Origin: Dehalococcoidia bacterium
GTDB lineage: Bacteria > Chloroflexota > Dehalococcoidia > Bin125
Assembly: GCA_022824765.1 (NCBI GenBank)
Contig: JAJDZG010000129.1
Location: 235 to 64,234 of the forward strand
Length of the DNA: 64,000 nt
Direction: 5' to 3'
Shown here: in pieces, positions 13,691-61,638 of the stretch
Numbering within the stretch: the first letter of the stretch is position 1
How the letters are laid out: each line of letters begins with the position of its first letter
The notes under the pieces: model-generated
Seen by the model: the letters and a program-made list of their open reading frames with translations, nothing else
What the model was told of the DNA's origin: nothing
Database searches by the model: none
Made by a program: the position numbers and the translations under genes

Positions 13691-13711
13691 CGCTCCCGTC
13701 CCTCCAAAGAA

Positions 13712-13850
13712 CAGACCATCATTCCACCCCCTCACCGTCTTTCCAGCTTGTCTGGAATCTCGCCCGGCTACACACCCGAACTCCGTCATTCCAGCCCCCC
13801 AACCGTCATTCCAGCCCCTCACCGTCTTTCCAGCTTGTCTGGAATCGCGC
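13712..13850. repeat. Second copy of the tandem-repeat/hairpin family (GTCATTCCAGCCCC units plus two GTCTTTCCAGCTTGTCTGGAATC hairpin units)
   Basis: Lies directly after the CitE-like stop. It shares the TTCCAGCTTGTCTGGAATCTCGCC hairpin and the GTCATTCCAGC core with the 11446-11560 array. Confidence 0.6.
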
Positions 13851-46524: not shown

Positions 46525-48246
46525 TCAGAACCCGCGGTAACGATTGGCGATCGGAAAGCGGCGCTCGCGGCCGAACGCGCGCGGTGTGATCTTCAGGCCC
46601 GGCGCCGCCTGGCGACGCTTGTACTCCGCGCCCGTCACCAGCGACATCACCCGCTTCACCTGCGACTCCTCGAATCCAAGCCCCGTGATCTCATCCAGCG
46701 ACCGATCCTCCTCCACAAACGCCTCGAGAATCGGATCGAGCTGGTCGTACGGCATCAGCGATTGCTCGTCGAACTGATCCGGCCGCAGCTCCGCCGACGG
46801 CGGCTTGGTCAGCACCGATCTCGGGATCACCTCCCGGCCCGCCCGCTCGTTGACCAGCTCCGAGAGACGGTAGACCAGCAGCTTCGGCACGTCCTGAATC
46901 ACCGCCAGGCCGCCCGTCATGTCCCCGTAGAGCGTCGTGTAGCCCGTCGCCGACTCGCTCTTGTTGGACGTCGTCAGCACCAGCGCGCCCATTTTGTTCG
47001 AGACAGCCATCATCAGCACACCGCGAATCCGCGCCTGCAGGTTCTCCTCCGTCACGTCCTCCGCCAACCCCTCAAACAGCGGCCCCAGCGTCTCCAGATA
47101 CGACGCGTACGGCCCTTCGATCGCCAGGACGTCCATCCGAATACCCAGATTCTCGGCCAGCGCCCGCGCATCCGCCACGCTGCCCTCCGACGAGTAGCGC
47201 GACGGCATCGAGAAGCCGCGCACATGCTCCGGACCGAGCGCATCAACCGCGATCGCCGCCGTCAGCGTCGAATCGATCCCGCCCGAGAGCGCGATCACGA
47301 CGTCCGCGAATCCAGTCTTGTGCACATAGTCGCGCGTCCCCAGCACGAGCGCCTCGTAGACCTCTTCATCGTCCGACCCCATCTCCACCAGCTCGGCCTC
47401 AAGCGGCGGCGCGGCGCCCCGCGACTGCGCCGACACCGTCGTGCGCGCCGCCTCCGTCTGCGGCAAACGCCGCAGCCTCGGATCATGCAGACGCGTCTGA
47501 CGGACCTCTTCGACATCCAGATCCACCGTCAGCATGTGATCGCTGAAGGCCGGCGCTCGCGCGATCAGATCGCCGCCCGGTCCAAAGACCGACGATCCGC
47601 CGTCGAAAATCAGATGGTCCTGCCCACCCACGAGATTGCAATACAGCGTCAACACCGCGTTGTCTGCGGCGCGAGTGGCCAACATCTGCTCGCGTTGGCG
47701 AGACTTCCCCGCATGGAACGGCGACCCGTTGATGTTCACCACCAGCTCGGCGCCAGCCAAACATTGATCCTGCATCGGCCCCGACGAATACCAGATGTCC
47801 TCGCAGATCGTCACACCGACGCTCGCGCCCGCGATCTCGAACAGCTGCACGCCCTCCCCAGGACGAAAGTAGCGCGCCTCGTCAAAGACGCCGTAGTTGG
47901 GCAGGTACTGCTTGTGATACGCACCCGCCAGCTTGCCGTCATGAATCACGCCAGCCGCGTTGAAGATGTCATGCGCGTAGTCGACGAATCCCACGACCGC
48001 CGTCACATGCAACCCCTGCGTGGCCTCGCAGACTCGCCCCAGCATCGCCAGATTGTCCTCGACGAAACCACGTCGCAGCACCAGATCTTCCGGCGGATAA
48101 CCCGTCAGAGCAAGCTCCGGAAAGGCCACCAGATCGGCACCGATCGACTCCGCCTCCTGAATCCGCTCGATGATCTTGTCAGCGTTGCCGGCGAGATCGC
48201 CGACCGTCGAGTTGATCTGCGCCAACGACGCCCGCAATCGTCGCAC
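46525..48246 (-). CDS. nadE: Glutamine-dependent NAD+ synthetase
   Basis: CN-hydrolase domain (LAQINSTVGDLAGN...FPELALTGYPPEDL...VTICEDIW) plus a NAD synthetase domain (ALSGGIDSTLTAAIA). The GTG start at 48246 is preceded by GGAGG with a 4-nt spacer. Confidence 0.85.
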   Translation of the reverse strand: MRRLRASLAQINSTVGDLAGNADKIIERIQEAESIGADLVAFPELALTGYPPEDLVLRRGFVEDNLAMLGRVCEATQGLHVTAVVGFVDYAHDIFNAAGVIHDGKLAGAYHKQYLPNYGVFDEARYFRPGEGVQLFEIAGASVGVTICEDIWYSSGPMQDQCLAGAELVVNINGSPFHAGKSRQREQMLATRAADNAVLTLYCNLVGGQDHLIFDGGSSVFGPGGDLIARAPAFSDHMLTVDLDVEEVRQTRLHDPRLRRLPQTEAARTTVSAQSRGAAPPLEAELVEMGSDDEEVYEALVLGTRDYVHKTGFADVVIALSGGIDSTLTAAIAVDALGPEHVRGFSMPSRYSSEGSVADARALAENLGIRMDVLAIEGPYASYLETLGPLFEGLAEDVTEENLQARIRGVLMMAVSNKMGALVLTTSNKSESATGYTTLYGDMTGGLAVIQDVPKLLVYRLSELVNERAGREVIPRSVLTKPPSAELRPDQFDEQSLMPYDQLDPILEAFVEEDRSLDEITGLGFEESQVKRVMSLVTGAEYKRRQAAPGLKITPRAFGRERRFPIANRYRGF

Positions 48247-48335
48247 GAGGCCTCCATCCCCAGCCACCAACCGCTGATCCGCAGGGTATCGCACCGCGCA
48301 GCCGCGCACAGATTCCGCTCAGCGCGCCCCCAGAT

Positions 48336-49304
48336 ATGCTCAAAGCTGTGTCCGACGCTCCAACCCTCGCCGCCGAAATCTCCAACGCATCCTTTGCCTG
48401 GCCTGGCGGACGCGGCGTCGACGATGTCTCGCTGCAGATCGCGCCCGGACAGATCGTCACCCTGCTCGGTCCAAACGGAGCCGGCAAGTCGACCGTCCTC
48501 AAGCTCCTCAGCGGCGAAATCAACCCCGATCGCGGCAGCGTCCAGATTCGCGGCAGACCGCACAGCCCCGACGTGCGGCGCGGCATCGGCCTCGTCCTGC
48601 AAGAACCCAGCACCGACGATCTGATGACCCTCGAAGAAACCTTGACCTTGCACGGCCGACTCTTTGGCCTGCGCGGCGCCCCGCTGCGCGAGCGCAGCGC
48701 CGCGCTGCTCGACGCCTTGCAGATCGGCGACCGCGCCGCCGACCGCTGCGAGACCCTGTCCGGCGGCCTGCGACGTCGACTCGACCTCGCCCGCGCCCTG
48801 CTGCACGAGCCCGAGCTGCTTTTGCTCGACGAACCGACGCTCGCGCTCGACCCCGACTCCAGCGCCGCCATCTGGTCCGCGCTGCGTGAGCGCGCAGCGG
48901 ACGGCGCCGCCATCGTCGTCTGCTCCAACGACACCAGCGAAGCAGAGTCCAACGCCGACCGCGTCGTGATCATCAACCGCGGCAGCATCCAGGCAGAAGG
49001 AAGGCCGTCTCAGCTCACCGCCAATCTCCGCCGCGACGCCCTCGAACTGGAGTGGCACGATGCGTCCGATACGGACATCGCCGCGCTCCAGGCATGGAAC
49101 GAGATCGGCTCCCTGCTGCGCTCCGATCACGGACTGCACCTGACCGTCGACAGCGCGGTCGAGACCGTGCCGCGACTCTTCCAGCAGTACGGCGCGCGGA
49201 TCAGCGGCATTCGCATTCGTGAATCGAGCCTGCGCGACGCCTGGTTCCAGATCGTCGGCGTCGCCATCTCGGACGCCATTTCGGACGAGGAGGATGCCTC
49301 GTGA
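48336..49304 (+). CDS. ABC transporter ATP-binding protein (ABC-2 exporter type)
   Basis: GPNGAGKST, LSGGLRRRLDLARAL and LLLDEPT. Confidence 0.85.
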   Translation: MLKAVSDAPTLAAEISNASFAWPGGRGVDDVSLQIAPGQIVTLLGPNGAGKSTVLKLLSGEINPDRGSVQIRGRPHSPDVRRGIGLVLQEPSTDDLMTLEETLTLHGRLFGLRGAPLRERSAALLDALQIGDRAADRCETLSGGLRRRLDLARALLHEPELLLLDEPTLALDPDSSAAIWSALRERAADGAAIVVCSNDTSEAESNADRVVIINRGSIQAEGRPSQLTANLRRDALELEWHDASDTDIAALQAWNEIGSLLRSDHGLHLTVDSAVETVPRLFQQYGARISGIRIRESSLRDAWFQIVGVAISDAISDEEDAS

Positions 49305-50092
49305 GCGGAACGCTGCTGGCGGCCTGGGCGCTCTTGGCTCGCGACCTGCGCGCCGTCGTCCGCTCGCGATCACAGCTCTACTCGTCGCTGCTGATGCCGC
49401 TGATGCTGCTCGCCGTGCTCGGCACCGGCGTATCCAGCGGGCTCGCGCCGACCTCGCCGCGCATCATCGACGGCGACTACACCTCGTACCTCGCGCCCGG
49501 CATGATCGCGATGACCGCTCTCTTCTCATCGACGTTCTCCAGCGCCGGACTCTACCGCGACCGCGAGAGCGGGCTGCTGCGCGCCCTGCTCGCCTCGCCG
49601 CACGGCCCGCCGACCATCATGTTCGGCAAGGCCCTGGCCGCCATCCTGATCGGGACCGTCCAGGCGCTGCTCGTGCTGGTCCTCGCGGTGGTCATCCCCG
49701 GCATCGACCTCGCCTGGCAGTTCGGCTGGCTCGGCGGCGCGGCCACGGTCGTCGCTGCCGTGCTCCTGCTCAACCTGATGCTCTCCGGACTGTCACTGCT
49801 GCTCGCGGTGCGAATCAAGACGATGCAGGGCTTCCACCTGATCATGAACCTCGCTCTCTTCCCGCTGTTCTTCCTCTCCGGCGCCTTCTTCCCACTCGAC
49901 CAGGTGCCCGCCTGGCTCGAGATCATCGGCTACATCAACCCGCTCACCTACGCCGTCGACCTGCTCCATTACGCGTCCTACGCCGACGCCCCCGACGGGC
50001 TGATCGGCCCGCTGATCGACACGTTGGTGCTCGGCGTCCTCGCCGTCGGCATGTTCGTGATCGGCCTCAGACGTGCCCCGCGAGCAGTCTGA
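49301..50092 (+). CDS. ABC-2 family transporter permease
   Basis: Six predicted TM segments. Overlaps the ATPase stop by 4 nt. Confidence 0.8.
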   Translation: MSGTLLAAWALLARDLRAVVRSRSQLYSSLLMPLMLLAVLGTGVSSGLAPTSPRIIDGDYTSYLAPGMIAMTALFSSTFSSAGLYRDRESGLLRALLASPHGPPTIMFGKALAAILIGTVQALLVLVLAVVIPGIDLAWQFGWLGGAATVVAAVLLLNLMLSGLSLLLAVRIKTMQGFHLIMNLALFPLFFLSGAFFPLDQVPAWLEIIGYINPLTYAVDLLHYASYADAPDGLIGPLIDTLVLGVLAVGMFVIGLRRAPRAV

Positions 50093-50983
50093 ATGCTCAA
50101 GATGAGACGGCCAATCGCCACCGCTTCCGCTGCCCTCTGCCTGCTCGGCGCCGCACTCGCCTCCGCCTGCGGAGACGGCGACGACCGCCTCGTCGTGACG
50201 GCCTCCGAAGGCGCATTCGTACCCGTCATCGAGACCTCCGACGTCTACGTCGGCATGCCGCGCCTCGTCGTCACCCTGCTCGAGCGTGACACCCAGCCCG
50301 ACTTCTCGGACGACGCCGTCTTCCTGGCCCGATTCTTCGCGCCCACGCCGGAAGGCGGTCTGCGATTCCACTCCGAAGCGCCGCTCGACACAATCCTCGT
50401 CGACGAACTGCGTTATCTGATCGCGCCCGAACCGCCCTTCGACGAGCCAGGCCAGTGGGCGCTCGCCGTGACCGTCGAACTCGCCGACCGCACGGCCGAA
50501 AGCTCGCCGCGACTGCCATTCATCGTCAACGAGCGTCCGCGCGGATTAACCGCAGGCGACCACGCACCGCGAATCGACACTCCAACCGTCACCGACGGCA
50601 TCCTCGAACGTCTGGCAGCACAGACACGGGACGACCCCTCGCTCTATGAACGATCAGCCGCCGAACTGCTCGACGCCGGCGAGCCATTCCTGATCGTCTG
50701 GGCCTCGGCTGACCGCTGCGCCGGCCGCTTGGCCTGCTCGCGAGCACTCGCGCAAGCGGTGGAGCTGCGCGATGCAGCCGTGATCAGCGTGATCCACGTC
50801 GAACCGTTCGGCCGACCGCGATCCGGCCAGCTGCAGACGCTCATCGACGCGGCCAACGAGGCCTGGGTCATCGAGGCAGAGCCGCAACTCTTCATCATCG
50901 ACGCCGATGGCGTGATCCGCGCCCGCTTCGAAATCGTGATCTCGGACGACGAACTGCGCCAGGCGGTTGACGACGTCCGCTAG
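50093..50983 (+). CDS. Putative lipoprotein (possibly thioredoxin-like fold)
   Basis: Lipobox LASAC. The start ATG directly abuts the upstream stop (TGAATG). No canonical CxxC is present. Confidence 0.5.
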   Translation: MLKMRRPIATASAALCLLGAALASACGDGDDRLVVTASEGAFVPVIETSDVYVGMPRLVVTLLERDTQPDFSDDAVFLARFFAPTPEGGLRFHSEAPLDTILVDELRYLIAPEPPFDEPGQWALAVTVELADRTAESSPRLPFIVNERPRGLTAGDHAPRIDTPTVTDGILERLAAQTRDDPSLYERSAAELLDAGEPFLIVWASADRCAGRLACSRALAQAVELRDAAVISVIHVEPFGRPRSGQLQTLIDAANEAWVIEAEPQLFIIDADGVIRARFEIVISDDELRQAVDDVR

Positions 50984-51927
50984 ACCAGCACGTCCACACC
51001 GACCGCGGCAAACACGATGAACAGATAGGCGATCGAGGCGAAGAACAGACGCATCGGCGCCGCCTCGCCCTTCCAAACCCGGTAGGCGATGTAGATGAAC
51101 ACAGCGCCAAAGGCCGCACACGTGCCCAGATAGCACCAGCTGAGATGCCCGCCAAGCGGCCCCAACAAGCTGACCGCGACCAGCCCAACCGAGTAGATCA
51201 GCAGCTGCTTGCGGGTCTCCCGCTCGCCCGCCACGACCGGCAGCATCGGCACGTCCGCTCGGGCATAGTCATCGCGGTACTTCAACGCCAACGCCCAGAA
51301 ATGCGGCGGCGTCCACATGAAAATCACCAGGAACAGAATGAACGGCGTCCAGGTCACCTCGCCCGTCACCGCCGCCCAACCGACAAGCGGCGGAATCGCA
51401 CCCGCCGCGCCGCCGATCACGATGTTCTGCGTCGTCGAACGCTTCAGCCAGACGGTGTAGACGAGCACGTAGAAGAGCACCGCCGCCTCGGCCAACAACG
51501 CCGCCAGCAGATTGACCGTCAAGGCAAGCTGTACGCCGCCGAGCGCCGCCAGCAGCACCCCCCAGGCCAGCGCCTGCCCAGGTTGGATCGTGCCCGCGGG
51601 CAGCGGACGCTGTGCGGTTCGCTCCATGATCGCGTCGATGTCGCGGTCGAACCACTGGTTGAACGTGTTCGCGCCGCCCGCAGTCAAAATGCCGCCCAGC
51701 AGCGTCAGCGCTATCAACCCCAACCCTTCGCCGAAGCTGCCCCGCGGCCAGCCGTCCGCGGCGACCACCATCGTCGGCACCGTCGTCACCAACAGCAGTC
51801 CGATGATGCCCGGCTTCGTCAGCTCCCAGAGCGCCCGCGCCGTAATCCACGCCGCTGGACCCCAGCCGCGCGCAGGCAGCGGCAAGCCCGGACTGGCGAT
51901 ACTCGGATCGGCGGCGCGTTCGGTCAT
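50980..51927 (-). CDS. ctaB: Protoheme IX farnesyltransferase (heme O synthase)
   Basis: UbiA-family motifs are present (NQWFDRDIDAIMERT, FIWTPPHFWAL-like FMWTPPHFWALAL). Confidence 0.9.
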   Translation of the reverse strand: MTERAADPSIASPGLPLPARGWGPAAWITARALWELTKPGIIGLLLVTTVPTMVVAADGWPRGSFGEGLGLIALTLLGGILTAGGANTFNQWFDRDIDAIMERTAQRPLPAGTIQPGQALAWGVLLAALGGVQLALTVNLLAALLAEAAVLFYVLVYTVWLKRSTTQNIVIGGAAGAIPPLVGWAAVTGEVTWTPFILFLVIFMWTPPHFWALALKYRDDYARADVPMLPVVAGERETRKQLLIYSVGLVAVSLLGPLGGHLSWCYLGTCAAFGAVFIYIAYRVWKGEAAPMRLFFASIAYLFIVFAAVGVDVLV

Positions 51928-51945
51928 CTGCTCTGCTGGTCAACT

Positions 51946-52992
51946 TCAGTCTGGTACCGACAGTATCGCGTCTGCCGGCGTTTCAGGCTCGCCCTCAGGC
52001 GTCGGATGCGGCTCGGACGTGGATCGATAGAGCGCGACCGCCGCCGATCCCGCGACCAGCGTCCAGGTCAGCGCGCCCACGGACAAATGCAGCGCACGCA
52101 ACTCTGCCGGGAACTCCAGCCGCAGCATCTCCGCACCCAGCGCGATCTGTCCCAGGTAGAGCAGCGCCGCGCCATGCATCATGAACGTGGCCGCTCGCGA
52201 GCGCGGACGCAGCATCACCACACCCAGCGACCCCGCGAACAACGCCGCGCCAGCGAGCACCACGATCAGCCGGTGCGACATGTGCCAACGCGCGTACAGT
52301 CCCGTCGGCCACAGATCGCCGTGGCAGAGCGGCCACTGACGCCAGCACGCGCCGCCGCCCGGTCCGACCTGAGCGCCGGCCTCCGGTTTCACGTCAATAT
52401 GCGTCACATACGATCCGACCACCACGACGGCCAGCGTCAGCACCGCCGCGACCACAGCCATCCACGCGTAGCGGTTGACCTGATCCTTGGAATCGACATC
52501 CAGCCTCGCTTGTTGCGCAGAAGGCGTCCAGCGCCAATCCCACGTACCCAGCCACGACGCGGTCACCAGCATCGTAATCAGCATCGCCGTCGCCAGATGC
52601 GAAGTGACGATCACATCCTCGAGCCGCTCGGTCACCGTCAGACCGCCCAGAATCACCTGCACCGCCAGCAACACCACGGCGACAGCAGACGTCAGCCAGA
52701 CGCGGCGCGCATGCATCCAGCGCCGCAGCGTGTAGACCGCCCAGCCGATGATCACAAAGCCCAACAGGGCCGCCACGAGTCGGTGCGTCCACTCCAACCA
52801 GACCTGATATGCCTCGTGCTCGCCGAAATCGCCCGACGGAATCACCGCCCCGTAGCAACCGGGCCAGTCGGGACAGGCCAGGCCGGAATCGGTCACGCGC
52901 ACGATCCCGCCTAGCGTCGTCAGCGCCAGCAGACCGATCACCAGTCCGAACCCGAACCACTGGGCCCGCGTCCAAGTCCTCAACACCTGCAT
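51946..52992 (-). CDS. ctaA: Heme A synthase (CtaA/COX15 family)
   Basis: GLACPDWPGCYG and conserved His-containing helices. An internal ATG at 52992 is preferred over the GTG at 53037. Confidence 0.8.
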   Translation of the reverse strand: MQVLRTWTRAQWFGFGLVIGLLALTTLGGIVRVTDSGLACPDWPGCYGAVIPSGDFGEHEAYQVWLEWTHRLVAALLGFVIIGWAVYTLRRWMHARRVWLTSAVAVVLLAVQVILGGLTVTERLEDVIVTSHLATAMLITMLVTASWLGTWDWRWTPSAQQARLDVDSKDQVNRYAWMAVVAAVLTLAVVVVGSYVTHIDVKPEAGAQVGPGGGACWRQWPLCHGDLWPTGLYARWHMSHRLIVVLAGAALFAGSLGVVMLRPRSRAATFMMHGAALLYLGQIALGAEMLRLEFPAELRALHLSVGALTWTLVAGSAAVALYRSTSEPHPTPEGEPETPADAILSVPD

Positions 52993-53043
52993 GACGCTCG
53001 CCGCTCTGTCGTGGTACTCATCGTTCGCTCGTGGCACGCCCGG

Positions 53044-54048
53044 TCAGCGCTCGCCGGGCCGTGGCCCCAGTGTGTCGAGTTCGCCGTGTATGCGCAGCTG
53101 CATGTTTCGCACAGTGTCGTTGCGCCGATCCTTGAAACCCTCCCGCTCGGCCCAGAAATACACCGTCAGAATGATCGCCAGCGCAAACATCATCGACCCC
53201 GGCACCCACATGATGCCCGCGCCGATCCGTTGGTCGACCAGCGCCGTCGGACCCCATTCGCGCAGCTCAGCAGCCGTCGCGTAGGTGTCGTAAATCGCGT
53301 CAGGCACGTTGATCAGAATCAGGCCCAACGCGATGTTCTGGAGGATCGCCACGACCAGCACCGCGCAGCGCCACACGTGATGCGGACGCAGCCGCGTTGC
53401 ATCCACGCCGATCACCAGCCACCAGAACAGCACCGCGCCGAACAGAAACACACCGTGTTCCACGAAGTGCAGCGCCTCCGAAGCAATCGCCGCATCGTAC
53501 GCCGCCGGCAGATGCCAACTCCACACGCTCAGCACGAACAACAGCAGCGCCACCGGCGGATACGTCAACCACTGCACGACGCGCGAGTTCAGGAACGGCA
53601 CCAGATACGACCTACGCACCCGCGGCGAGGCGGCCCGCAGCGCCAGCGTCGCCGGCGCGCCCAACAGCATCAGCGGCGCGACGAGCATCGTGATGAACAC
53701 ATGCTGGACCATGTGGACCCAGAACAGGTCGTCCGAGTACGTGTCGATCGGCGAGACCAGGCCCAGGATCATGAAGACCCAACCCGCGCCAAAGGACCAC
53801 AGGTGCCAGCGCGGGAAGTGGAAGCTCGGCGAGTCGCGCCGCAGTCGGTAGTAGCCCCAGCCGTAGAGCCCGCCCACGACCAGGACCAACGCGATGCCCG
53901 GCGCGTCAATGCTCCAAACGCCCAGCGCCGTCAGCAACTCTGCCGACTCGGCATAGCGGCCATCGTGCGCCGACAGCACCCTCGGTGCGAGCGCTGCCGC
54001 CACGCCGCCCGACGCGGCAATCAGCGCGGCCAGTGCCCGCCCCGTCAC
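53044..54048 (-). CDS. ctaG: Cytochrome c oxidase assembly factor CtaG (Caa3_CtaG family)
   Basis: Polytopic membrane protein with HMVQH and HFVEHG motifs typical of Caa3_CtaG. Sits between ctaE and ctaA. Confidence 0.7.
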   Translation of the reverse strand: MTGRALAALIAASGGVAAALAPRVLSAHDGRYAESAELLTALGVWSIDAPGIALVLVVGGLYGWGYYRLRRDSPSFHFPRWHLWSFGAGWVFMILGLVSPIDTYSDDLFWVHMVQHVFITMLVAPLMLLGAPATLALRAASPRVRRSYLVPFLNSRVVQWLTYPPVALLLFVLSVWSWHLPAAYDAAIASEALHFVEHGVFLFGAVLFWWLVIGVDATRLRPHHVWRCAVLVVAILQNIALGLILINVPDAIYDTYATAAELREWGPTALVDQRIGAGIMWVPGSMMFALAIILTVYFWAEREGFKDRRNDTVRNMQLRIHGELDTLGPRPGER

Positions 54049-54073: not shown

Positions 54074-54694
54074 TCAGCTCAGGAAGAAGACGAGCGGGAA
54101 AATGACCAGCAGCCATACGAACCCGACAAAGTGCCAGTACAGCGTCGCCGCCTCAATCGCCGTGTTGCGCTTGGCGTCGAAGTGACCCAGCAGACCGCGC
54201 AGCCACTGCGCGAAAATGAACACCAACCCGCCGATCACGTGCGCCCCATGGAACCCGGTCAGCGTGTAGAACGTCGCCGCGTACGGGCCATCCGAGATCC
54301 CGAAGTCCGCGTGCTCCCACTCGAAGTACTGGTTGATGATGAAGGCCGTCCCGACGACCAGCACGATCGCCATGTTGATCAGCATCGCCTTGCGATTCCC
54401 CTTGCGGATCGCGAACGCCGCCAGCTGCATCGGAATCGACGTGCTCACCAACAGCACCGTGAACAGGATCGGCAGCAGGTGATCGCCTTCCACTCGGTGC
54501 CCGCCGTTGGTTGGCTCCCACAGCAGCGTGTCGGAGTGCAGCGCGAGCATCGCCGCGATCAGCCCCGCGAAGAACATGATCTCGGAGAAAATGAAGAAGA
54601 TGATCCCCCACAGGCCCGTCGTCATCGGCTCGTCGCCGACGAGGAAGCTGCGAACCGGGTGCACCCGCTTGTGCGGGACGGCTGAGGCTGCCAT
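54074..54694 (-). CDS. ctaE: Cytochrome c oxidase subunit III
   Basis: FFAGLIAAMLALH...TGFHGAHVIGG are classic subunit III motifs. Confidence 0.9.
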   Translation of the reverse strand: MAASAVPHKRVHPVRSFLVGDEPMTTGLWGIIFFIFSEIMFFAGLIAAMLALHSDTLLWEPTNGGHRVEGDHLLPILFTVLLVSTSIPMQLAAFAIRKGNRKAMLINMAIVLVVGTAFIINQYFEWEHADFGISDGPYAATFYTLTGFHGAHVIGGLVFIFAQWLRGLLGHFDAKRNTAIEAATLYWHFVGFVWLLVIFPLVFFLS

Positions 54695-54696
54695 GA

Positions 54697-56439
54697 CTAC
54701 CCCTCCTCCCGCGCGGACTCGGAGGGCTGGCTGGCGCCGCCCCCTCCACTGCCGTGACCATTGTGACCGTTGTTGACGTGGTAATGCGGGTCGTCCTGCA
54801 GACGCTCACCGAAGCGCAGGTCGAACAGCGGCCGCTCCGAGCGAATCTCCGGCAGCGAGTCGAAGTTGTGCGCCGGCGGCGGTGACGTCGTCGCCCACTC
54901 CAGCGTCGTTCCCTCCCACGGATCCGAACCCGCGCGCTCGCCCCACTTCAGCGAGTAGAACACGTTGTAGAGGAAGACCATCATGCCCGCCGCCGAGACG
55001 AACGCGCCAATCGTGATCAGCATGTTCATCAGCTCCCAGCCCGGATTCGCGACGTAGTCGTTGATCCGACGCGGCATCCCGTCCAGACCCAGCAGCAGTT
55101 GCGTGAAGAAGACCAGGTTCACACCGATGAACAGCAGCCAGAAATGCAGCTTGCCCAGCCCCTCGTTCATGAACTTGCCGAACATCTTCGGGAACCAGTA
55201 ATAGCAGCCCGCCAGGAATCCGAACGTCGCCGCAATCGACATCGTGTAGTGGAAGTGGCCCACCACGAAGTACGTGTCGTGCAGCGCGAAGTCGACCGGC
55301 ACCGCCGCGTGGAAGACACCCGTGATCCCGCCGATCAGGAAGAGCATCAGGAAGCCGACACTGAACAGCATCGCCGTCGGGAAGACGTTCGATCCGCGCC
55401 ACATGGTCGCGATCCAGTTGAACATCTTCACGCCCGTCGGCACCGCAATCAGGAACGTCGCGCCCATGAAGAACGGCAGGAACACGCCGCCCGTCGTGAA
55501 CATGTGATGCGCCCAGACAATGAACCCCAACAGTCCAATCCCCACCAACGCCAGCACCATCGATCGGTAGCCGAAGATCGGCCGCCGCGTGAACACGCCG
55601 AACACGTCCGAGACGATCCCCATCGCCGGCAGGATCATGATGTACACAGCCGGGTGCGAGTAGAACCAGAACAGATTCTGCCAGAGCAGCGGCTGCCCGC
55701 CGTTCGCCGGGTCGAAGAACGCGCCCTCCGCGCCGTTGCGGTCGATGAACCCCAGCACCAGCGCCGCGGCCAGCACCGGTGTCGAGAGCAGGATCAGCAG
55801 CCCCGTCACGAGCGTCGTCCACGTAAACAGCGGCAGCCGCCACATCGTCATCCCCGGCGCCCGCATCTTGAAAATCGTGACGAGGAAGTTGACCGACCCA
55901 AAGATCGACGCCTGCCCCAGCAGGATCACCCCCACGAGCCACATGTCCATCCCCGCGCCGGGCGGCTCCGCGTTGTTGCCCGTGTCCAGCGTCACCGGCG
56001 GATAGGCCGTCCAACCAGCCGATGCCGTGCCGCCCTCCACCGCAAAGCTCATCGCCAGCAGCGCACCGCCGAACAGGAAAATCCAGAACGACAACGCGTT
56101 GATGCGCGGGAACGCCATGTCCAGCGCGCCAATCTGCAGCGGCATCGAATAATTCATGAACGCCGCGCCCACCGGCAGCAGGAAGAGGAAGATCATCACG
56201 CTGCCATGCATCGTGAAGATCGAGTTGTACGTCTCCGCCGAAATGATCGTGCCAGCCTGCGCCAGCTCCGTCCGCATGACCAGCGAGAAGGCCATCCCGA
56301 CGAGCCCAAAGGCCCCGGCCGCCCAGAGGTACATGATGCCGATCTTCTTGTGGTCGACCGTCGTCAACCACTCCAGCACCGTGCGCCAGACATTTGCGCC
56401 GGCGTATGGTGTCGTCTGCGCCCCCGCCAGTGTCGCCAT
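54697..56439 (-). CDS. ctaD: Cytochrome c oxidase subunit I
   Basis: WFFGHPEVY-like FWFYSHPAVYIMILP, the heme/CuB His ligands, and 580 aa. GGAGGG RBS. Confidence 0.92.
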   Translation of the reverse strand: MATLAGAQTTPYAGANVWRTVLEWLTTVDHKKIGIMYLWAAGAFGLVGMAFSLVMRTELAQAGTIISAETYNSIFTMHGSVMIFLFLLPVGAAFMNYSMPLQIGALDMAFPRINALSFWIFLFGGALLAMSFAVEGGTASAGWTAYPPVTLDTGNNAEPPGAGMDMWLVGVILLGQASIFGSVNFLVTIFKMRAPGMTMWRLPLFTWTTLVTGLLILLSTPVLAAALVLGFIDRNGAEGAFFDPANGGQPLLWQNLFWFYSHPAVYIMILPAMGIVSDVFGVFTRRPIFGYRSMVLALVGIGLLGFIVWAHHMFTTGGVFLPFFMGATFLIAVPTGVKMFNWIATMWRGSNVFPTAMLFSVGFLMLFLIGGITGVFHAAVPVDFALHDTYFVVGHFHYTMSIAATFGFLAGCYYWFPKMFGKFMNEGLGKLHFWLLFIGVNLVFFTQLLLGLDGMPRRINDYVANPGWELMNMLITIGAFVSAAGMMVFLYNVFYSLKWGERAGSDPWEGTTLEWATTSPPPAHNFDSLPEIRSERPLFDLRFGERLQDDPHYHVNNGHNGHGSGGGGASQPSESAREEG

Positions 56440-56484: not shown

Positions 56485-57837
56485 CTAGCCGCCGGCCTCA
56501 ATCAGTTCAGCGAGTTTACTCGGGATCACCGCCGACTCAGGCGGTCGCGGCACCGTCTGTAGCCACGCGTAGATGTCCGCCACATCCTCGTCCGACACCT
56601 GGTCCGGCGGGAACGCGGTCATCGCCTCCAGCGGCTCGCGGTACTGCGTGATCACCCGGTCCGGCGGCACGATCGTCTGCGCGATCGTCGGGCCCACCAG
56701 ACCCTCACCGCTGTCACCGTGACAGACGTTGCAGCCGAGCGAGAAGAACAGGCTCTGCCCGTTCGTCGCGTTACCCAAAGCGCCCTCTTCCTGCTCGACC
56801 TCTTCCTCGCCGCCGAAGTCACCCTCAATCGGTTCGGGAGCCGAGCCAGCCTTGTCCGCAAACCAGGCCTCATAGTCCGCCGGTTCGAGTGCGCGCACCG
56901 TGTAGATCATCCGCGCGTGGTCGCGACCGCAGAACTCAGCGCACTGGCTGGCAAAGTCGCCTGCCTCGGTGATTCGAACCCACAGCGTCTGCACGCGGCC
57001 CGGTACCGCGTCAAGCTTCGTCAGGAACTGCGGCGTGTAGAACGCGTGCAACACGTCGGCCGAGGCAATGTTGAAGCGAATCATCGGACCCACCGGCACC
57101 GTCACAATCGGCGTGTTGTCGGCCTGCTGCAAGCGACCCTCGGCAACCGTGTCGGTACCGTTGAACGAACGCATCACCTCGCTGCCCGCAGCATGGCGAA
57201 TCGGGACCGTCCCGTTGACCGCACGCTCGACCGTCACCACGTCGCCCGTGCGAGCGACCACCCGCATGTGCTCGACGCCCAGCTTGAGCGTCATGAAGGG
57301 CACGACCAGCGACGGATCCTCGAGCACGATCTCCGTGTCAGCCGGATTCTCGGACACCGCCTCGGCCAGATCGGTACCCAACGGCACCGCGTAGTTGAAG
57401 GCCCACGCCCACTGCCGACCCTGAACATCGACGACCACCGTCTCCTCGTCCGGATCCGCGGCCGCCTGAATGTCCTGCAGGACAAAGAAGGAAATGATGA
57501 ACAGCGCGATCACGATCACCGTCGGGATGCCCGTCCACAGGATCTCGGCCGTGGCGTTGTGGCCGACCTGCGTCGGCAGCTCGTCGTCGCTCTTGCGCTT
57601 GTAGCGGAACACGACCCAGAGAATCATCGCTTCCACGATGATGAAGACCGCCACCCCGATGCCAAACACGACGAAGTACAGCGCACGGATCGAGTCGCCC
57701 TGCTCAGAGACGGCCTCGGGCAGCGCAACCTGAGCCGCGGCGAGACCGGTCAGCGCCAGCAGCGCGATCGCGGCCGCGCCCATGACCAGCGTCAACCGCC
57801 CCCATCGGGTTCGCCACAGCCGTTGATGTGCCCTCAC
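56485..57837 (-). CDS. ctaC: Cytochrome c oxidase subunit II fused to a C-terminal cytochrome c domain (caa3-type), with an insertion of about 85 aa in the cupredoxin domain
   Basis: CuA site CAEFCGRDHARM. C-terminal heme-c motif CNVCHG. Signal sequence plus 2 TM. The GTG at 57837 is preceded by AAGGGAG with a 7-nt spacer; the ORF-track TTG start at 57882 has no RBS. Confidence 0.85.
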   Translation of the reverse strand: MRAHQRLWRTRWGRLTLVMGAAAIALLALTGLAAAQVALPEAVSEQGDSIRALYFVVFGIGVAVFIIVEAMILWVVFRYKRKSDDELPTQVGHNATAEILWTGIPTVIVIALFIISFFVLQDIQAAADPDEETVVVDVQGRQWAWAFNYAVPLGTDLAEAVSENPADTEIVLEDPSLVVPFMTLKLGVEHMRVVARTGDVVTVERAVNGTVPIRHAAGSEVMRSFNGTDTVAEGRLQQADNTPIVTVPVGPMIRFNIASADVLHAFYTPQFLTKLDAVPGRVQTLWVRITEAGDFASQCAEFCGRDHARMIYTVRALEPADYEAWFADKAGSAPEPIEGDFGGEEEVEQEEGALGNATNGQSLFFSLGCNVCHGDSGEGLVGPTIAQTIVPPDRVITQYREPLEAMTAFPPDQVSDEDVADIYAWLQTVPRPPESAVIPSKLAELIEAGG

Positions 57838-57883: not shown

Positions 57884-59068
57884 TCAGCCTGCGCCGTCCG
57901 CGCCGTCCATCAACGGCGCATCCGACACATGCTCGTCCCCGTGTGCTTCGTGATCATCGTGCTCGGGCTCCTCGAAGTAGCGGATGTCCTCGAGGAACCA
58001 GCCCACGCCGCCAAACACGATCAGTGTGATACCCGCGCCCAACACCTGGTCGGTGAAGACCGCTCCAGCCGCGGTCATGATCAGCCCGACCGCGAACACC
58101 AGCGGCGAGATGCTCGGCGGCGGCATGTGGATGCCTGGCGGCGGCGGCGCAACTCCAGGCATCACCTGCAGCGGATTCTGCCGATACTCCGCCGGCCCGC
58201 CCGCCTCGAAGTAGCCCATGTCCTCGAGGAACCAGCGCACCGCCGAGAGCACGATCAGCGTGATCCCGACACTCAGCAGCTGTCCCACGAAGACCGCGCC
58301 CGCGGCCAGCATGATCAATCCCAAGGCAAACAGCACCGGCGCCAGGCTGGGCGGCGGCAGATGAGATTCAGGCGTGTCGTGGCCGCCGTGACCATGTGCG
58401 TCATCCAGACCAGACGGCAGGGCCAGCGTCGCCGACGGCTGCGGGGCCGGTGCCGCCAACGCGGGCACGTCCCCGCTGCGAGACGCCGGCAACGGTTGCA
58501 GGTAACCGTCGGCGATCACCTTGCGCTCGTCGCGATACGCCATCGGACGCAGCGCCGGCGGCAGCAAACCAGCGATCGGCTTGAACAGGTCAGGCCCGCT
58601 GTAGGCCTCCTGCAGGTCGAGCCCGAAACTGGAAGGCCGCTGACGGTACGTCACCAACTTGTGCAGCTTGATCCCATTGATCCGGCAGAGCCGAATCGCG
58701 CGGCCGCTCTGACCCATCGGCACGTACAGCACCAGCGGTCCCGCCGCGGCCAACGGCTTCCAACGCTCTGCAGCCGTCTCCTGGTTGACCTCGTGCGTCA
58801 GCGCCAACTCGCCCGAGAGCGCGATGAAGTGGCCCGGCTCGTCCGTCACCACGATGTCCGGGTAAATCCAGCCCGCGTTGCGGACGCGGACACCCATCTG
58901 CTCGGCCGGGAAGTTGACCGTCACTTCGCGATCAGGGAACTCGTCGTTGGGATAGCCGTAGCTCGCCTCAGCGATCTGCTGAAGCACCGAATGCCGCTTC
59001 TGCCTCGCCGACTCCAGCGTGGGCATGGCCGTCAGTTCTCCCCGCTCGTAGACCGCGTTCGCATACAT
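57884..59068 (-). CDS. Uncharacterised membrane protein leading the caa3 operon: an N-terminal soluble domain of about 190 aa plus two tandem copies of a 2-TM module ending in WFLEDxxYFE
   Basis: Repeats PPSLAPVLFALGLIMLAAGAVFVGQLLSVGITLIVLSAVRWFLEDMGYFE and PPSISPLVFAVGLIMTAAGAVFTDQVLGAGITLIVFGGVGWFLEDIRYFEE are about 75% identical. The gene is co-directional and 46 nt upstream of ctaC. The start is uncertain (ATG 59068 or 59026). Confidence 0.55.
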   Translation of the reverse strand: MYANAVYERGELTAMPTLESARQKRHSVLQQIAEASYGYPNDEFPDREVTVNFPAEQMGVRVRNAGWIYPDIVVTDEPGHFIALSGELALTHEVNQETAAERWKPLAAAGPLVLYVPMGQSGRAIRLCRINGIKLHKLVTYRQRPSSFGLDLQEAYSGPDLFKPIAGLLPPALRPMAYRDERKVIADGYLQPLPASRSGDVPALAAPAPQPSATLALPSGLDDAHGHGGHDTPESHLPPPSLAPVLFALGLIMLAAGAVFVGQLLSVGITLIVLSAVRWFLEDMGYFEAGGPAEYRQNPLQVMPGVAPPPPGIHMPPPSISPLVFAVGLIMTAAGAVFTDQVLGAGITLIVFGGVGWFLEDIRYFEEPEHDDHEAHGDEHVSDAPLMDGADGAG

Positions 59069-59121
59069 CGGCGTACACGCTGCGGTCGATCTCCGATCCT
59101 AACCCAGCCCTGGCACACGGG

Positions 59122-60400: not shown

Positions 60401-61474
60401 CTACGCGTTCTGTCTCGCCTCGGTCGGCGGCGCCGCCGCCACCGAGACCAACTTGAACCGCTTGCGGCCACTCGGCGCGTCGATCTCGATCACGCGGTTG
60501 GCTTGCTGGTCCAGCAAGCCGCGACCGAGCGGGCTGTCGACCGATATTCGCCGCTCCGCCGCGTTCGCTTGAGTGGTTCCGACCAGAGTGTACTCCTTGG
60601 ACTGCCCCTGCTCGGCACCCTCCGAGTCGACCACCACCACCGTCACCAGGCTGCCGATCTGCGCGCGGCCCGTGTCCGCCGCTTCCCGCACCACCGCGCG
60701 GTCGATCTGATACCGCAGCTCGTCAATCCGCGAGCTCAGCCGCTCCTGCTGTTCGCGCGCCGCCTCGAGCGGAGCGTTCTCGCGGATGTCTTTATCTTCG
60801 CGCGCCGCCGCGACCGCCTGGATCAGGTCCGGCATCCGCGCCTCAGCCTCGCTCAGCTCGCGCTTCAGATGCTCCAGACCCTCCGCCGTCATCTCGAACG
60901 TCTCGGCCTCCTCGTGCGTGAAGTTGCCCGTCGTCCGCACCCCGCCCGCAGACCGCTTGATCTTCAGGTGGTTGCCCAGATTCTGCTCGCACCATTCGCG
61001 TTCCTTCCAGCAATAGCGAAGGAACTCCTTGACCGGGCGCAGCTTCGACTCGAGGTCGGTCGTGTTGTCGCCCATGATCTGCTGGAACCGCTCGATCCCG
61101 TTCGGGTTCAGCTCCACAATCGGCGTCGCGGGACCGACGTGCGAGAGAAACCGGTTGATCGCCTGGCGCGCCCCCTCGTCGAGCTCGAACACCGTCCGCT
61201 TGGCCGGCACCGCTCGAGACGACGTCTTGCGATTCTTGCGCTTCGCCTCCCGCGCCTCTTCCCACATGAAGTACTCGGTCACCGCCTGATCCAGGGTGAC
61301 CGCGGACGCAGACGCGCCGTTGCCGCTCTCCACGGAACGATCAGCAACCGCCACCGACGACGGACGCTCGACGACGTCGCCCGCGACTACATCGACATCA
61401 TCGCCGTCCTCGTCCACGATGTCCTCAACCGCAGTCTCGGCCTCATCCATGCGCGCATCGTCAGACAATCCCAT
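60401..61474 (-). CDS. GreA/GreB-family transcription elongation factor-like protein with an N-terminal extension of about 200 aa
   Basis: C-terminal region MPDLIQAVAAAREDKDIRENAPLEAAREQQERLSSRIDELRYQI...ISVDSPLGRGLLDQQANRVIEIDAPSGRKRFKLVSV matches the GreA coiled-coil plus FKBP-like domain. GGGAGG lies 6 nt before the ATG at 61474. Confidence 0.7.
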   Translation of the reverse strand: MGLSDDARMDEAETAVEDIVDEDGDDVDVVAGDVVERPSSVAVADRSVESGNGASASAVTLDQAVTEYFMWEEAREAKRKNRKTSSRAVPAKRTVFELDEGARQAINRFLSHVGPATPIVELNPNGIERFQQIMGDNTTDLESKLRPVKEFLRYCWKEREWCEQNLGNHLKIKRSAGGVRTTGNFTHEEAETFEMTAEGLEHLKRELSEAEARMPDLIQAVAAAREDKDIRENAPLEAAREQQERLSSRIDELRYQIDRAVVREAADTGRAQIGSLVTVVVVDSEGAEQGQSKEYTLVGTTQANAAERRISVDSPLGRGLLDQQANRVIEIDAPSGRKRFKLVSVAAAPPTEARQNA

Positions 61475-61638
61475 GCGAGACCTCCCACTTTGGTCGAAAC
61501 TGCCGCCGGTCTCGACGGCCCATGCCGCAGACACCCAAGCACCGCAGAGCCCGTCTCGACTCCGCCACCTCTTATCTTACTCCCTATCGAGCGGGAATCC
61601 GTACTCCAGCACCTCGCAATCTGGCAAGTCGGAATCTG

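What the first reader, a model, noticed from the sequence alone, without database searches (positions are those of the whole stretch)
57884..59068. Uncharacterised gene heading the caa3 oxidase operon encodes a duplicated 2-TM 'WFLEDxxYFE' module
A 394-aa ORF lies directly upstream and co-oriented with ctaC-ctaD-ctaE-ctaG-ctaA-ctaB. Its C-terminal half is two about-50-residue repeats (about 75% identical), each a TM hairpin ending in WFLED[MI][GR]YFE and each preceded by a Pro-rich segment (HLPPPSLAP and HMPPPSISP). Its N-terminal 190 aa is a soluble domain with no motif I recognise. It does not resemble canonical subunit IV (CtaF) sequences that I can recall. It could be a lineage-specific extra subunit, an assembly factor or an unrelated passenger.
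Basis: seen in the sequence. Interest (0 to 1): 0.6.

Follow-up and report, generated by a model that had tools for sequence, protein, structure and literature searches.

The report
Split oxidase subunit III hairpins, nuclease-fold domain
The unnamed gene ahead of this bacterium's cytochrome oxidase genes most likely supplies, in two copies, the two membrane helices missing from the shortened oxidase subunit III, and it carries an unexpected nuclease-shaped cytoplasmic domain that turns up joined to oxidase subunits in other bacteria too.

Summary
It lies on the minus strand, and the gene is probably 380 aa (57884..59026), not 394 aa.

**The repeats.** The two C-terminal repeats are 63% identical, far above chance. 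Each is a two-helix hairpin. By profile they are homologous to helices 1-2 of canonical 7-helix COX3, to the C-terminal hairpin of actinobacterial CtaF (PF12270), and to helices XIII-XIV of QoxB.

**The gap they would fill.**
- The window's ctaE is the 5-helix form that lacks these helices.
- ctaD has no C-terminal extension.
- The operon has no ctaF.

The ORF is therefore best read as a CtaF-like subunit that completes subunit III, here duplicated in tandem.

**Conservation.** The gene sits directly upstream of ctaC in 59/59 Dehalococcoidia species loci and in 6/6 loci found through ctaC alone.

**Verdict.** This is a new variant of a known kind, of moderate interest. No experiment yet shows the protein in the enzyme.

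The parts
57884..59026 (-). Gene X, 380 aa plus stop, taking the probable true start at M15. The longest ORF reaches 59068 (394 aa).
   Evidence: ORF list. Homologues other than the 96%-identical P0001 start at MPT.... GGGGAG box upstream of the ATG at 59026.
58592..59026 (-). N-terminal domain, aa 1-145, with a restriction-endonuclease-like (PD-(D/E)xK) fold. Predicted cytoplasmic. Invariant residues in the family: D57, E63, H66, E79, R88, W89.
58481..58591 (-). Conserved tail of the domain, aa 146-182 (SGPDLF..PIA.LLPPALRP..YR.ER). Similar LLP..LR/K tails follow the domain in stand-alone and CoxII-fused relatives.
   Evidence: Alignments. Sequences of P0150, P0159, P0124, P0147 and P0195.
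58376..58480 (-). Disordered linker, aa 183-217, ending in a His/Asp/Glu-rich stretch (DDAHGHGGHD).
   Evidence: pLDDT <50 over aa 182-218. The 20 aa before hairpin 1 are 14% His, 28% D+E and 0% K+R across 76 homologues.
58205..58375 (-). Hairpin 1, aa 218-274: HLPPPSLAP, two TM helices, then RWFLEDMGYFE. Homologue of COX3 helices 1-2.
58142..58204 (-). Pro-rich linker between the hairpins, aa 275-295. Mean length in the family is 25 aa, 22% Pro.
57971..58141 (-). Hairpin 2, aa 296-352: HMPPPSISP, two TM helices, then GWFLEDIRYFE. Homologue of COX3 helices 1-2.
   Evidence: The weak PF12270 hit of the window protein falls here.
57887..57970 (-). Disordered His/acid-rich C-terminal tail, aa 353-380.
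   Evidence: pLDDT <50. Family tails are 15% His and 30% D+E.
56485..57837 (-). ctaC, subunit II with a C-terminal cytochrome c domain (caa3 type). Probable GTG start at 57837; the longest ORF starts at TTG 57882.
   Evidence: Pfam COX2_TM, COX2 and Cytochrome_CBB3. Sequence. tblastn alignments start at this residue in relatives.
54697..56439 (-). ctaD, subunit I, 580 aa, with no extra C-terminal TM helices.
   Evidence: Pfam COX1 covers aa 32-481. The hydropathy scan finds no segment after aa 497.
54074..54694 (-). ctaE, subunit III, 206 aa. This is the 5-helix form that lacks helices 1-2.
   Evidence: Pfam COX3 matches only profile positions 74-251 of 258. Hydropathy.
50980..54048 (-). ctaG (53044..54048), ctaA (51946..53037) and ctaB (50980..51927). 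The gaps of 25, 6 and 18 nt leave no room for a separate ctaF.

Best explanation
Gene X most likely encodes a structural subunit of the A-type caa3 oxidase. It would be functionally equivalent to actinobacterial CtaF.

**Proposed mechanism.**
- Each C-terminal repeat is a detached copy of transmembrane helices 1-2 of subunit III.
- The window's CtaE has only the five core helices, and CtaD has no C-terminal helices XIII-XIV. One hairpin of X is therefore inferred to pack against CtaE and CtaD and rebuild the seven-helix subunit III. In canonical enzymes that assembly forms the lipid-holding cleft and borders the D-pathway entrance.
- The second, co-evolving hairpin is inferred to occupy a neighbouring peripheral site, as the other two helices of four-helix CtaF do. 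Alternatively it fills the same site on a second oxidase monomer.

**Topology.** By homology with COX3 (N-terminus on the N side), and because there is no signal peptide, all soluble parts lie in the cytoplasm. These parts are the restriction-endonuclease-fold N-domain, the His/acid-rich flanks and the Pro-rich linker.

**N-domain.** It is an accessory cytoplasmic module anchored to the oxidase. It is probably no longer a nuclease, and its role (docking, oligomerisation or regulation) is unknown.

**Shown versus inferred.**
- Shown: hairpin homology, the complementary absence of the hairpin from ctaE and ctaD, conserved position, and the fold of the N-domain.
- Inferred: physical presence in the enzyme, which site each hairpin fills, the topology, and any role of the N-domain.
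For: 1. **Hairpin against solved structures.** The hairpin profile (22 hairpins) searched against 177,635 PDB sequences gives COX3 chains as most top hits. All are matched at their N-terminal helices 1-2 with HxxxPSxWP...WWxD in register: 7jro_c E 2.3e-4, 5j4z_BC 3.8e-4, R. sphaeroides 1m56_C 9.2e-4, bovine 1v54_C 4.3e-3. Also hit are B. subtilis QoxB residues 579-622 (E 2.4e-3) and an actinobacterial 'cytochrome c oxidase polypeptide 4', 9wcx_m residues 87-127 (E 0.3).
2. **Profile-profile comparison.** hhalign against three COX3 hairpins gives probability 96.6%, E 5e-10, over 51 columns.
3. **Pfam.** 17/22 single hairpins hit PF12270 Cyt_c_ox_IV, best E 9.9e-9. Several homologues carry precomputed PF12270 hits.
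5. **Complementary absence.** The window ctaE matches only COX3 profile positions 74-251 of 258. ctaD has no C-terminal helices. No ctaF fits in the operon. X holds the only hairpins in the window.
6. **Other hairpin genes in cta operons.** A Chloroflexi MAG has an 88-aa single-hairpin gene whose stop overlaps the start of a 213-aa COX3 gene (L008). A doubled hairpin plus cupredoxin gene follows COX1/COX3 fragments in L007.
7. **Conserved position.** X lies directly upstream of ctaC-ctaD-ctaE in 59/59 GTDB species loci with enough DNA, and in 6/6 loci retrieved through CtaC alone. X identity falls to 40%, similar to CtaC at 45-52%.
8. **Packing.** X and ctaC are 1-46 nt apart, with no promoter-like or terminator-like site between them.
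9. **The N-domain recurs with oxidase genes in other forms.**
   - Fused to a bona fide CoxII (P0150 passes TIGR02866) at the head of another oxidase operon.
   - Placed after a 2-TM segment directly downstream of a 186-aa COX3 gene (P0127).
   - Stand-alone beside ctaA-ctaB-COX2 (P0133).
Against: - There are no protein-level data. Co-purification, stoichiometry and the binding site are all inferred.
- The whole neighbourhood (GreA, citrate synthase, X, cta) is collinear across this one lineage. Adjacency alone therefore cannot separate functional linkage from inherited synteny.
- The window protein's own PF12270 score (19.5 bits) is below the gathering score of 26.9. The PDB E-values are modest (1e-4 to 1e-3), and short TM segments are prone to compositional matches.
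- Foldseek found nothing at E <= 1e-3.
- Some oxidases work with a 5-helix subunit III and nothing in the helix 1-2 site (F. johnsoniae, cited in PMC8361435). The hairpin is therefore not obligatory.
- A role as an assembly chaperone for CtaE is not excluded.
- Several relatives of the N-domain have no cox context.
- The N-terminal 2-TM segment of P0127 does not match the hairpin profile significantly (E 4.7 among 146 sequences).
Confidence: 0.65

Rival explanations
1. X is an assembly factor or chaperone. Its hairpins transiently occupy the helix 1-2 site of the 5-helix CtaE, or hold CtaE or CtaD during haem and copper insertion. X is not part of the mature enzyme, and the cytoplasmic domain recruits other assembly components.
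For: - X sits in an operon that also carries three assembly genes: ctaG, ctaA and ctaB.
- A stand-alone relative of the N-domain lies beside ctaA-ctaB.
- 5-helix subunit III enzymes can function without a hairpin (PMC8361435).
Against: - The closest characterised homologue of the hairpin, CtaF, is a stable subunit seen in solved supercomplexes.
- X is placed next to the structural genes ctaC-D-E, not among ctaG-A-B.
- The N-domain is fused directly to the structural subunit CoxII in other operons. That fixes it stoichiometrically to the mature enzyme there.
Confidence: 0.15
2. X is a staple that joins two complexes. Its two near-equivalent hairpins each fill the vacant helix 1-2 site of a different 5-helix CtaE (or of another partner complex), so X enforces an oxidase dimer or a supercomplex. 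The nuclease-fold domain could add a dimer interface.
For: - The two hairpins show no repeat-specific signature across distant subgroups: orthologous identity 0.476 against cross identity 0.474.
- Within one protein they stay 52-93% identical. This suggests equivalent constraints or gene conversion.
- The linker between them is conserved at about 25 residues and is Pro-rich.
- In known supercomplexes the subunit III face is the contact surface (PMC8361435).
Against: - Concerted evolution by gene conversion would give the same pattern without equivalent binding sites.
- Actinobacterial CtaF also has four helices within a single complex.
- No structural or stoichiometric data exist, and multimer prediction could not be run.
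- This is a refinement of the best explanation rather than a true alternative.
Confidence: 0.12
3. X is an unrelated passenger. It is a membrane-anchored PD-(D/E)xK nuclease (for defence, toxin or DNA processing) that merely shares a transcript or a neighbourhood with the cta genes.
For: - The N-domain has a nuclease fold.
- Remote relatives are fused to histone-H1-like DNA-binding tails (P0217 HC2 hit; P0180 sequence).
- The entire neighbourhood is syntenic, so linkage could be historical.
Against: - The TM part is specifically homologous to an oxidase subunit piece that this operon lacks.
- There is no match to any PADLOC defence model.
- The glutamate of the (V/I)E(T/S/G) motif (mostly VET) is conserved in all 12 non-cta relatives aligned. 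In the cta-linked family it is Ala or Thr, and no catalytic Lys is present.
- Independent fusions of the domain to CoxII argue for a real link with oxidases.
Confidence: 0.05

Closest known systems
Actinobacterial CtaF (cytochrome aa3 oxidase subunit IV, Pfam PF12270; seen in M. smegmatis and C. glutamicum III2IV2 supercomplex structures)
   Same: - Both have four TM helices.
- Both carry a hairpin with a (P)HSxWP-like motif before helix 1 and an aromatic/acidic motif after helix 2.
- Both partner a 5-helix CtaE, and together they make up a canonical subunit III (PMC8361435).
- Both are encoded next to ctaC.
- Hairpins of the X family hit PF12270, and the PDB search finds an actinobacterial CtaF chain.
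   Different: - In X both hairpins carry the COX3-type motif, as a tandem duplication 52-93% identical within one protein.
- X is 380 aa and has a ~180-aa cytoplasmic nuclease-fold domain plus His/acid-rich linkers. CtaF is about 140 aa and lacks these.
- X lies upstream of ctaC.
- X occurs in Chloroflexota (Dehalococcoidia MAGs), not Actinomycetota.
- The window protein scores below the PF12270 gathering threshold.
Helices 1-2 of canonical seven-helix subunit III (COX3/CtaE of mitochondria, Rhodobacter, Paracoccus)
   Same: - The motif and hairpin length are the same, with E 2e-4 to 4e-3 in the PDB and hhalign probability 96.6%.
- A His-rich segment precedes the motif, as at the COX3 N-terminus (sequences).
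   Different: - The hairpin is encoded on a separate polypeptide, separated from ctaE by ctaC and ctaD.
- It is present twice.
- The conserved WP and WW of COX3 are replaced by xP and W(F/L).
C-terminal helices XIII-XIV of subunit I in quinol oxidases (B. subtilis QoxB, E. coli CyoB)
   Same: - This is the same evolutionary solution: a 5-helix subunit III whose missing hairpin is supplied from another polypeptide.
- QoxB residues 579-622 match the hairpin profile, E 2.4e-3.
- That these helices sit in the subunit III helix 1-2 position rests on my own knowledge of the bo3 and aa3-600 structures. It was not tested here.
   Different: There the hairpin is fused to subunit I, as a single copy, with no soluble domain.
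Stand-alone single-hairpin genes next to 5-helix cox3 in other Chloroflexi (for example P0099, 88 aa; unannotated)
   Same: - The HLPPPSLSP...W..DD hairpin is the same (profile E 2e-11).
- The gene is translationally coupled to COX3.
   Different: It has one hairpin, no soluble domain, and sits directly before ctaE.
YaeQ and other PD-(D/E)xK (restriction-endonuclease-like) fold proteins
   Different: - There is no detectable sequence similarity.
- There is no (D/E)xK.
- The domain is tethered to the membrane and linked with respiratory oxidase subunits.

Membership tests
Actinobacterial-type CtaF (Pfam PF12270 Cyt_c_ox_IV) | Whole-protein score above the Pfam gathering threshold (26.9 bits) | tested here: not met
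   The window protein scores 19.5 bits, E 1.1e-3, over aa 315-360 against profile positions 80-125 of 132. At family level, 17/22 isolated hairpins hit PF12270, best E 9.9e-9, and several homologues have precomputed hits. The protein is a relative of the family, not a member as the family is defined.
Actinobacterial-type CtaF (Pfam PF12270 Cyt_c_ox_IV) | Small (~130-140 aa) protein made only of four TM helices | tested here: not met
   Four TM helices are present. However, the protein is 380 aa with a ~180-aa soluble domain.
Actinobacterial-type CtaF (Pfam PF12270 Cyt_c_ox_IV) | Encoded with cta structural genes and paired with a 5-helix CtaE | tested here: met
   X lies directly upstream of ctaC. 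ctaE is 206 aa and matches COX3 profile positions 74-251 only. The arrangement is conserved in 59/59 and 6/6 loci.
Actinobacterial-type CtaF (Pfam PF12270 Cyt_c_ox_IV) | Stable subunit of the purified oxidase, occupying the subunit III helix 1-2 position | not testable with these tools
   This needs proteomics or cryo-EM of the enzyme.
COX3 N-terminal hairpin (helices 1-2 of seven-helix subunit III) | Profile-level sequence homology, including the H-x3-PS-x-(W)P and W-(W)-x-D motifs in register | tested here: met
   hmmsearch against the PDB: COX3 chains matched at residues ~5-66, E 2.3e-4 to 3.5e-2. hhalign: 96.6% probability, E 5e-10.
COX3 N-terminal hairpin (helices 1-2 of seven-helix subunit III) | Contiguous with the five-helix core in one polypeptide | tested here: not met
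   The hairpin is on a separate gene, with ctaC and ctaD between X and ctaE.
Bacillus-type CtaF / prokaryotic COX4 (Pfam PF03626 COX4_pro) | Match to PF03626 | tested here: not met
   No hit at E <= 1.
PD-(D/E)xK nuclease superfamily (N-domain) | Core alpha-beta-beta-beta-alpha-beta fold | tested here: met
PD-(D/E)xK nuclease superfamily (N-domain) | Catalytic signature: D at the start of strand 2 and (D/E)xK in strand 3 | tested here: inconclusive
   D57 is invariant. The glutamate of the (V/I)E(T/S/G) motif is present in all 12 non-cta relatives aligned, but it is Ala or Thr in the cta-linked family. No conserved Lys is found in any member. E79 and H78 are conserved nearby and could substitute. 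Model coordinates could not be inspected.
PD-(D/E)xK nuclease superfamily (N-domain) | Metal-dependent nuclease activity | not testable with these tools
   This needs a biochemical assay.

The most novel reading that the evidence does not exclude
The ~140-aa restriction-endonuclease-fold domain defines a previously undescribed family with no Pfam, NCBIfam or PADLOC model. That family has been recruited repeatedly as a cytoplasmic accessory module of haem-copper oxidases.

**Forms in which it is linked to oxidase genes.**
- Fused to duplicated subunit III hairpins (X).
- Fused to CoxII.
- Placed after a 2-TM segment next to cox3.
- Encoded beside ctaA-ctaB.

**What it might do in X.** Together with two interchangeable hairpins and His/acid-rich flanks, it may dimerise or bridge oxidase complexes. 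Alternatively it may gate or feed proton uptake at the D-pathway mouth. That would be a bacterial counterpart, by analogy only, of the matrix-side regulatory subunits of mitochondrial complex IV.
Probability: 0.25. Interest if true: 0.75.

Novelty: new variant of a known kind. Interest (0 to 1): 0.52.

Why it matters
- **Annotation.** This gives a name and a testable role to a 'hypothetical protein' conserved at the cta locus of a whole lineage of Dehalococcoidia-class Chloroflexota. At least 61 species genomes carry it, and several MAG names suggest sponge symbionts.
- **Evolution of subunit III.** The actinobacterial 'split subunit III' solution (CtaE + CtaF) also exists outside Actinomycetota, with a tandem duplication of the hairpin. 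This adds to the picture of COX3 helices 1-2 as a mobile module. That module can be fused to subunit I, free-standing, doubled, or used as a membrane anchor for soluble domains such as a cupredoxin or a nuclease-fold domain.
- **An unexpected partner.** A nuclease-fold domain on the cytoplasmic face of an oxidase, also fused independently to CoxII, is unexpected. It points to an unstudied accessory function of bacterial complex IV.
- **Practical use.** The hairpin profile can be used to annotate missing 'subunit IV' genes in genomes whose cox3 is of the 5-helix type.

Tried and rejected
**Searches that found nothing.**
- The N-domain against Pfam, NCBIfam, PADLOC and PDB sequences gave no hits.
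- Foldseek against the PDB gave nothing at E <= 1e-3. The weak top hits were 260-266-aa respirasome chains and the 139/143-aa chains 6hwh_S and 7q21_F. I take these to be COX3 and CtaF by length only.
- The promoter and terminator scan found no site in either gap flanking X. It therefore says nothing about where transcription starts.
- Literature searches for a nuclease-fold and oxidase fusion, and for Chloroflexi subunit IV, found nothing relevant.

- AF2 of the N-domain alone, with 17 sequences, gave a poor model (pLDDT 60). The full-length model was used instead.
- The afdb50 fold library was not available.

**Hits and leads rejected.**
- The weak hits of the window protein to DUF3040, DUF7541, SidA_fam and SCO2097_fam are all below their cut-offs and lie on the TM segments. 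I treated them as compositional.
- P0084 looked like an X-CtaC fusion. Its contig also has split ctaC and ctaG genes, so I read it as a frameshift artefact of the assembly.
- The 2-TM segment of P0127 resembles the hairpin by eye (PSASIWP...GWIRDD) but is not significant against the profile (E 4.7). I use it only as suggestive evidence.
- The C-terminal extension of the 635-aa COX1 in L074 gave no hairpin-profile hit at E < 0.01.
- The 84-aa gene after ctaB in L001 has no counterpart in the window.
- Contexts of the stand-alone domains P0124 and P0126 and of the ferredoxin fusion P0146 showed no cox genes.
Full report
**1. The observation**

The ORF exists at 57884..59068, but on the minus strand. 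Downstream on the same strand lie these genes:
- ctaC (COX2_TM, COX2 and a cytochrome c domain, so caa3 type)
- ctaD
- ctaE
- ctaG (the Caa3_CtaG type)
- ctaA
- ctaB

Upstream lie citrate synthase and a long GreA homologue.

Homologues at 40-87% identity begin at the residue equivalent to M15 (MPTLES...). Only the 96%-identical P0001 shares the 394-aa length. A GGGGAG box precedes that ATG. The gene is therefore probably 57884..59026, 380 aa, and I use that numbering below.

The internal repeat is real:
- It spans aa 218-274 and 296-352.
- The alignment score is 194, against 27.8 +/- 5.4 for shuffles.
- The motifs HLPPPSLAP / HMPPPSISP and WFLEDMGYFE / WFLEDIRYFE are as described.
- Each repeat contains two TM helices.

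**2. What the repeats are**

I built a profile from 22 hairpins of the family and of a related architecture (A2) and searched it against all PDB sequences.
- Most top hits were COX3 chains, each matched at its N-terminal helices 1-2 with the HxxxPSxWP and WWxD motifs in register. Examples are 7jro_c (E 2.3e-4), R. sphaeroides 1m56_C (9.2e-4) and bovine 1v54_C (4.3e-3).
- The search also found residues 579-622 of B. subtilis QoxB (E 2.4e-3).
- It found, weakly, an actinobacterial cytochrome c oxidase polypeptide 4, 9wcx_m residues 87-127 (E 0.3).

Other tests agree:
- A profile-profile comparison with three COX3 hairpins gives 96.6% probability and E 5e-10.
- Seventeen of the 22 hairpins hit Pfam PF12270, the actinobacterial CtaF family, with a best E of 9.9e-9.
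- The window protein alone scores only 19.5 bits, below the gathering score of 26.9.

The review PMC8361435 states that in M. smegmatis CtaE and CtaF together form the equivalent of canonical subunit III, and that CtaF provides the equivalents of helices 1-2. The hairpin is thus a known evolutionary module.

**3. Why it fits this operon**

- The window's ctaE is 206 aa and matches the COX3 profile only from position 74 to 251 of 258. It is the five-helix form without helices 1-2.
- ctaD is 580 aa and has no hydrophobic segment after the canonical twelve helices.
- The gaps between ctaE, ctaG, ctaA and ctaB are 25, 6 and 18 nt, so there is no ctaF.
- X carries the only hairpins in the 64-kb window.

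Elsewhere the same module appears in other forms:
- An 88-aa single-hairpin gene has a stop that overlaps the start of a 213-aa COX3 gene in a Chloroflexi MAG (P0099, L008).
- A doubled hairpin with a C-terminal cupredoxin lies just after COX1 and COX3 fragments (P0085-P0087, L007).

**4. Conservation**

The full-length protein occurs only in MAGs named Dehalococcoidia or Chloroflexi/Chloroflexota, with identity falling to 40%.
- In 61 species-level genomes the order GreA, citrate synthase, X, ctaC, ctaD, ctaE is kept in all 59 loci with enough downstream DNA.
- Those loci were found through X itself. I therefore also seeded a metagenome scan with CtaC. All six loci with a full-length CtaC relative (50-85% identity) have X directly upstream.
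- At the greatest distance X is 40-46% identical. For comparison, CtaC is 45-52%, CtaD 66-72% and GreA 34-39%. X therefore behaves as a constrained protein.
- No promoter-like or terminator-like site lies between X and ctaC.

One caveat applies. The whole neighbourhood is collinear in this lineage, so adjacency alone is weak evidence.

**5. The two hairpins compared**

Between distant subgroups, repeat 1 is no more similar to repeat 1 than to repeat 2 (0.476 against 0.474). Within one protein the repeats are 52-93% identical. This indicates concerted evolution or equivalent constraints on the two hairpins. It leaves open a model in which the two hairpins fill equivalent sites on two complexes.

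The segments flanking the hairpins are 14-15% His and 28-30% Asp+Glu, with almost no Lys or Arg. This is reminiscent of the His-rich N-terminus of COX3 visible in the aligned PDB sequences. I infer, without having tested it, that these segments lie at the cytoplasmic mouth of the D pathway.

**6. The N-terminal domain**

A profile of the domain searched against 1.84 billion representative proteins finds 226 clusters at E <= 1e-3. None has a Pfam, NCBIfam or PADLOC model for this domain. Most are stand-alone proteins of 130-180 aa. The informative ones are:
- **CoxII fusions.** P0150, P0159 and P0166 have the domain plus its LLPPALRP tail fused to the N-terminus of CoxII. P0150 passes the TIGR02866 cut-off and heads a COX2, cupredoxin, COX1, COX4_pro, COX3 operon. 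Its three predicted TM segments before the periplasmic domain place the nuclease-fold domain in the cytoplasm.
- **Next to COX3.** P0127 has the domain after a 2-TM segment, and its gene lies directly downstream of a 186-aa COX3 gene. That 2-TM segment is not significantly similar to the hairpin profile.
- **Beside ctaA-ctaB.** P0133 is stand-alone and lies beside ctaA-ctaB-COX2.
- **Not linked to cox genes.** Ferredoxin fusions (P0131, P0146) and the stand-alone proteins P0124 and P0126 show no cox context.
- **DNA-binding tails.** Remote members carry histone-H1-like tails.

The catalytic signature is incomplete:
- D57 is invariant.
- The glutamate of the (V/I)E(T/S/G) motif (mostly VET), present in all twelve non-cta relatives aligned, is Ala or Thr in the cta-linked family.
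- No Lys is conserved anywhere.
- H78 and E79 are conserved instead.

I therefore regard nuclease activity as doubtful but not excluded.

**7. Interpretation**

The best-supported reading is that X is a CtaF-like structural subunit. It supplies the missing helices 1-2 of subunit III in duplicate, and it tethers a cytoplasmic nuclease-fold domain to the oxidase (confidence 0.65).

Rival readings:
- an assembly factor (0.15)
- a staple joining two complexes (0.12), which is a refinement of the main reading rather than a true rival
- an unrelated membrane nuclease (0.05)

Nothing here shows the protein in the enzyme. That needs proteomics, cryo-EM or at least a multimer prediction, none of which I could run.

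**8. Novelty**

The split subunit III principle is known. New here are:
- its occurrence in Chloroflexota
- the tandem duplication
- the position upstream of ctaC
- above all, the fusion to an undescribed nuclease-fold domain that is linked to oxidase subunits in several independent ways

I found no paper describing this. I rate it a new variant of a known kind, with moderate interest.

Noticed in passing
window 56485..57837 (-), CtaC aa ~133-244: CtaC has about 110 residues between the COX2_TM match (aa 50-132) and the COX2 match (aa 245-330, which starts at profile position 33). This looks like an inserted small beta-rich segment (…FMTLKLGVEHMRVVARTGDVVTVERAVNGT…). It is also present in the ctaC part of P0084.
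   Followed up: no
window 60401..61534 (-): The GreA homologue is 377 aa. The GreA/GreB domains cover only aa 215-365, leaving an N-terminal extension of about 210 aa with no Pfam match. GreA is also next to the cox-linked stand-alone domain gene P0133 in L085.
   Followed up: no
P0080 (homologue of X); hairpins listed: Its two hairpins are 93% identical to each other, against 52-73% in other members. This suggests recent gene conversion or re-duplication.
   Followed up: partly
P0085-P0087; L007 6001..6989: A second architecture uses the same doubled hairpin. It has an N-terminal TM helix, two hairpins and a C-terminal cupredoxin (PF13473), and it is encoded right after COX1 and COX3 fragments, in the ctaF position. 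It may be a membrane-tethered copper electron carrier docked on the oxidase.
   Followed up: partly
L006 8001..10369 and 12810..13806; L007 3533..5826: These ENA long-contig assemblies have split ctaC, ctaG, COX1 and COX3 genes. The apparent X-CtaC fusion protein P0084 is therefore probably a frameshift artefact.
   Followed up: partly
P0131, P0146; L072 7001..8212: These are fusions of an FdxA-like 4Fe-4S ferredoxin, a TM segment and the nuclease-fold domain. They are encoded between TauE/YceI and AhpC/OsmC-type genes, with no cox genes nearby.
   Followed up: partly
P0180, P0217 and similar 250-400-aa representatives: Remote members of the nuclease-fold domain family carry long Lys/Ala/Pro-rich histone-H1-like tails (HC2 Pfam hit for P0217). 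This suggests that part of the family binds DNA.
   Followed up: no
window 50093..50983 (+) and 48105..49373 (-): These are ORFs of 296 and 422 aa next to ctaB with no Pfam match. They may be overlapping-frame artefacts in this GC-rich DNA.
   Followed up: no
window 59027..59121 (gap between citrate synthase and X): The gap is 95 nt in the window and about 100-320 nt in relatives, larger than the gaps within the cta cluster. No sigma-70-like promoter or terminator was detected. The start of the transcription unit is undetermined.
   Followed up: partly
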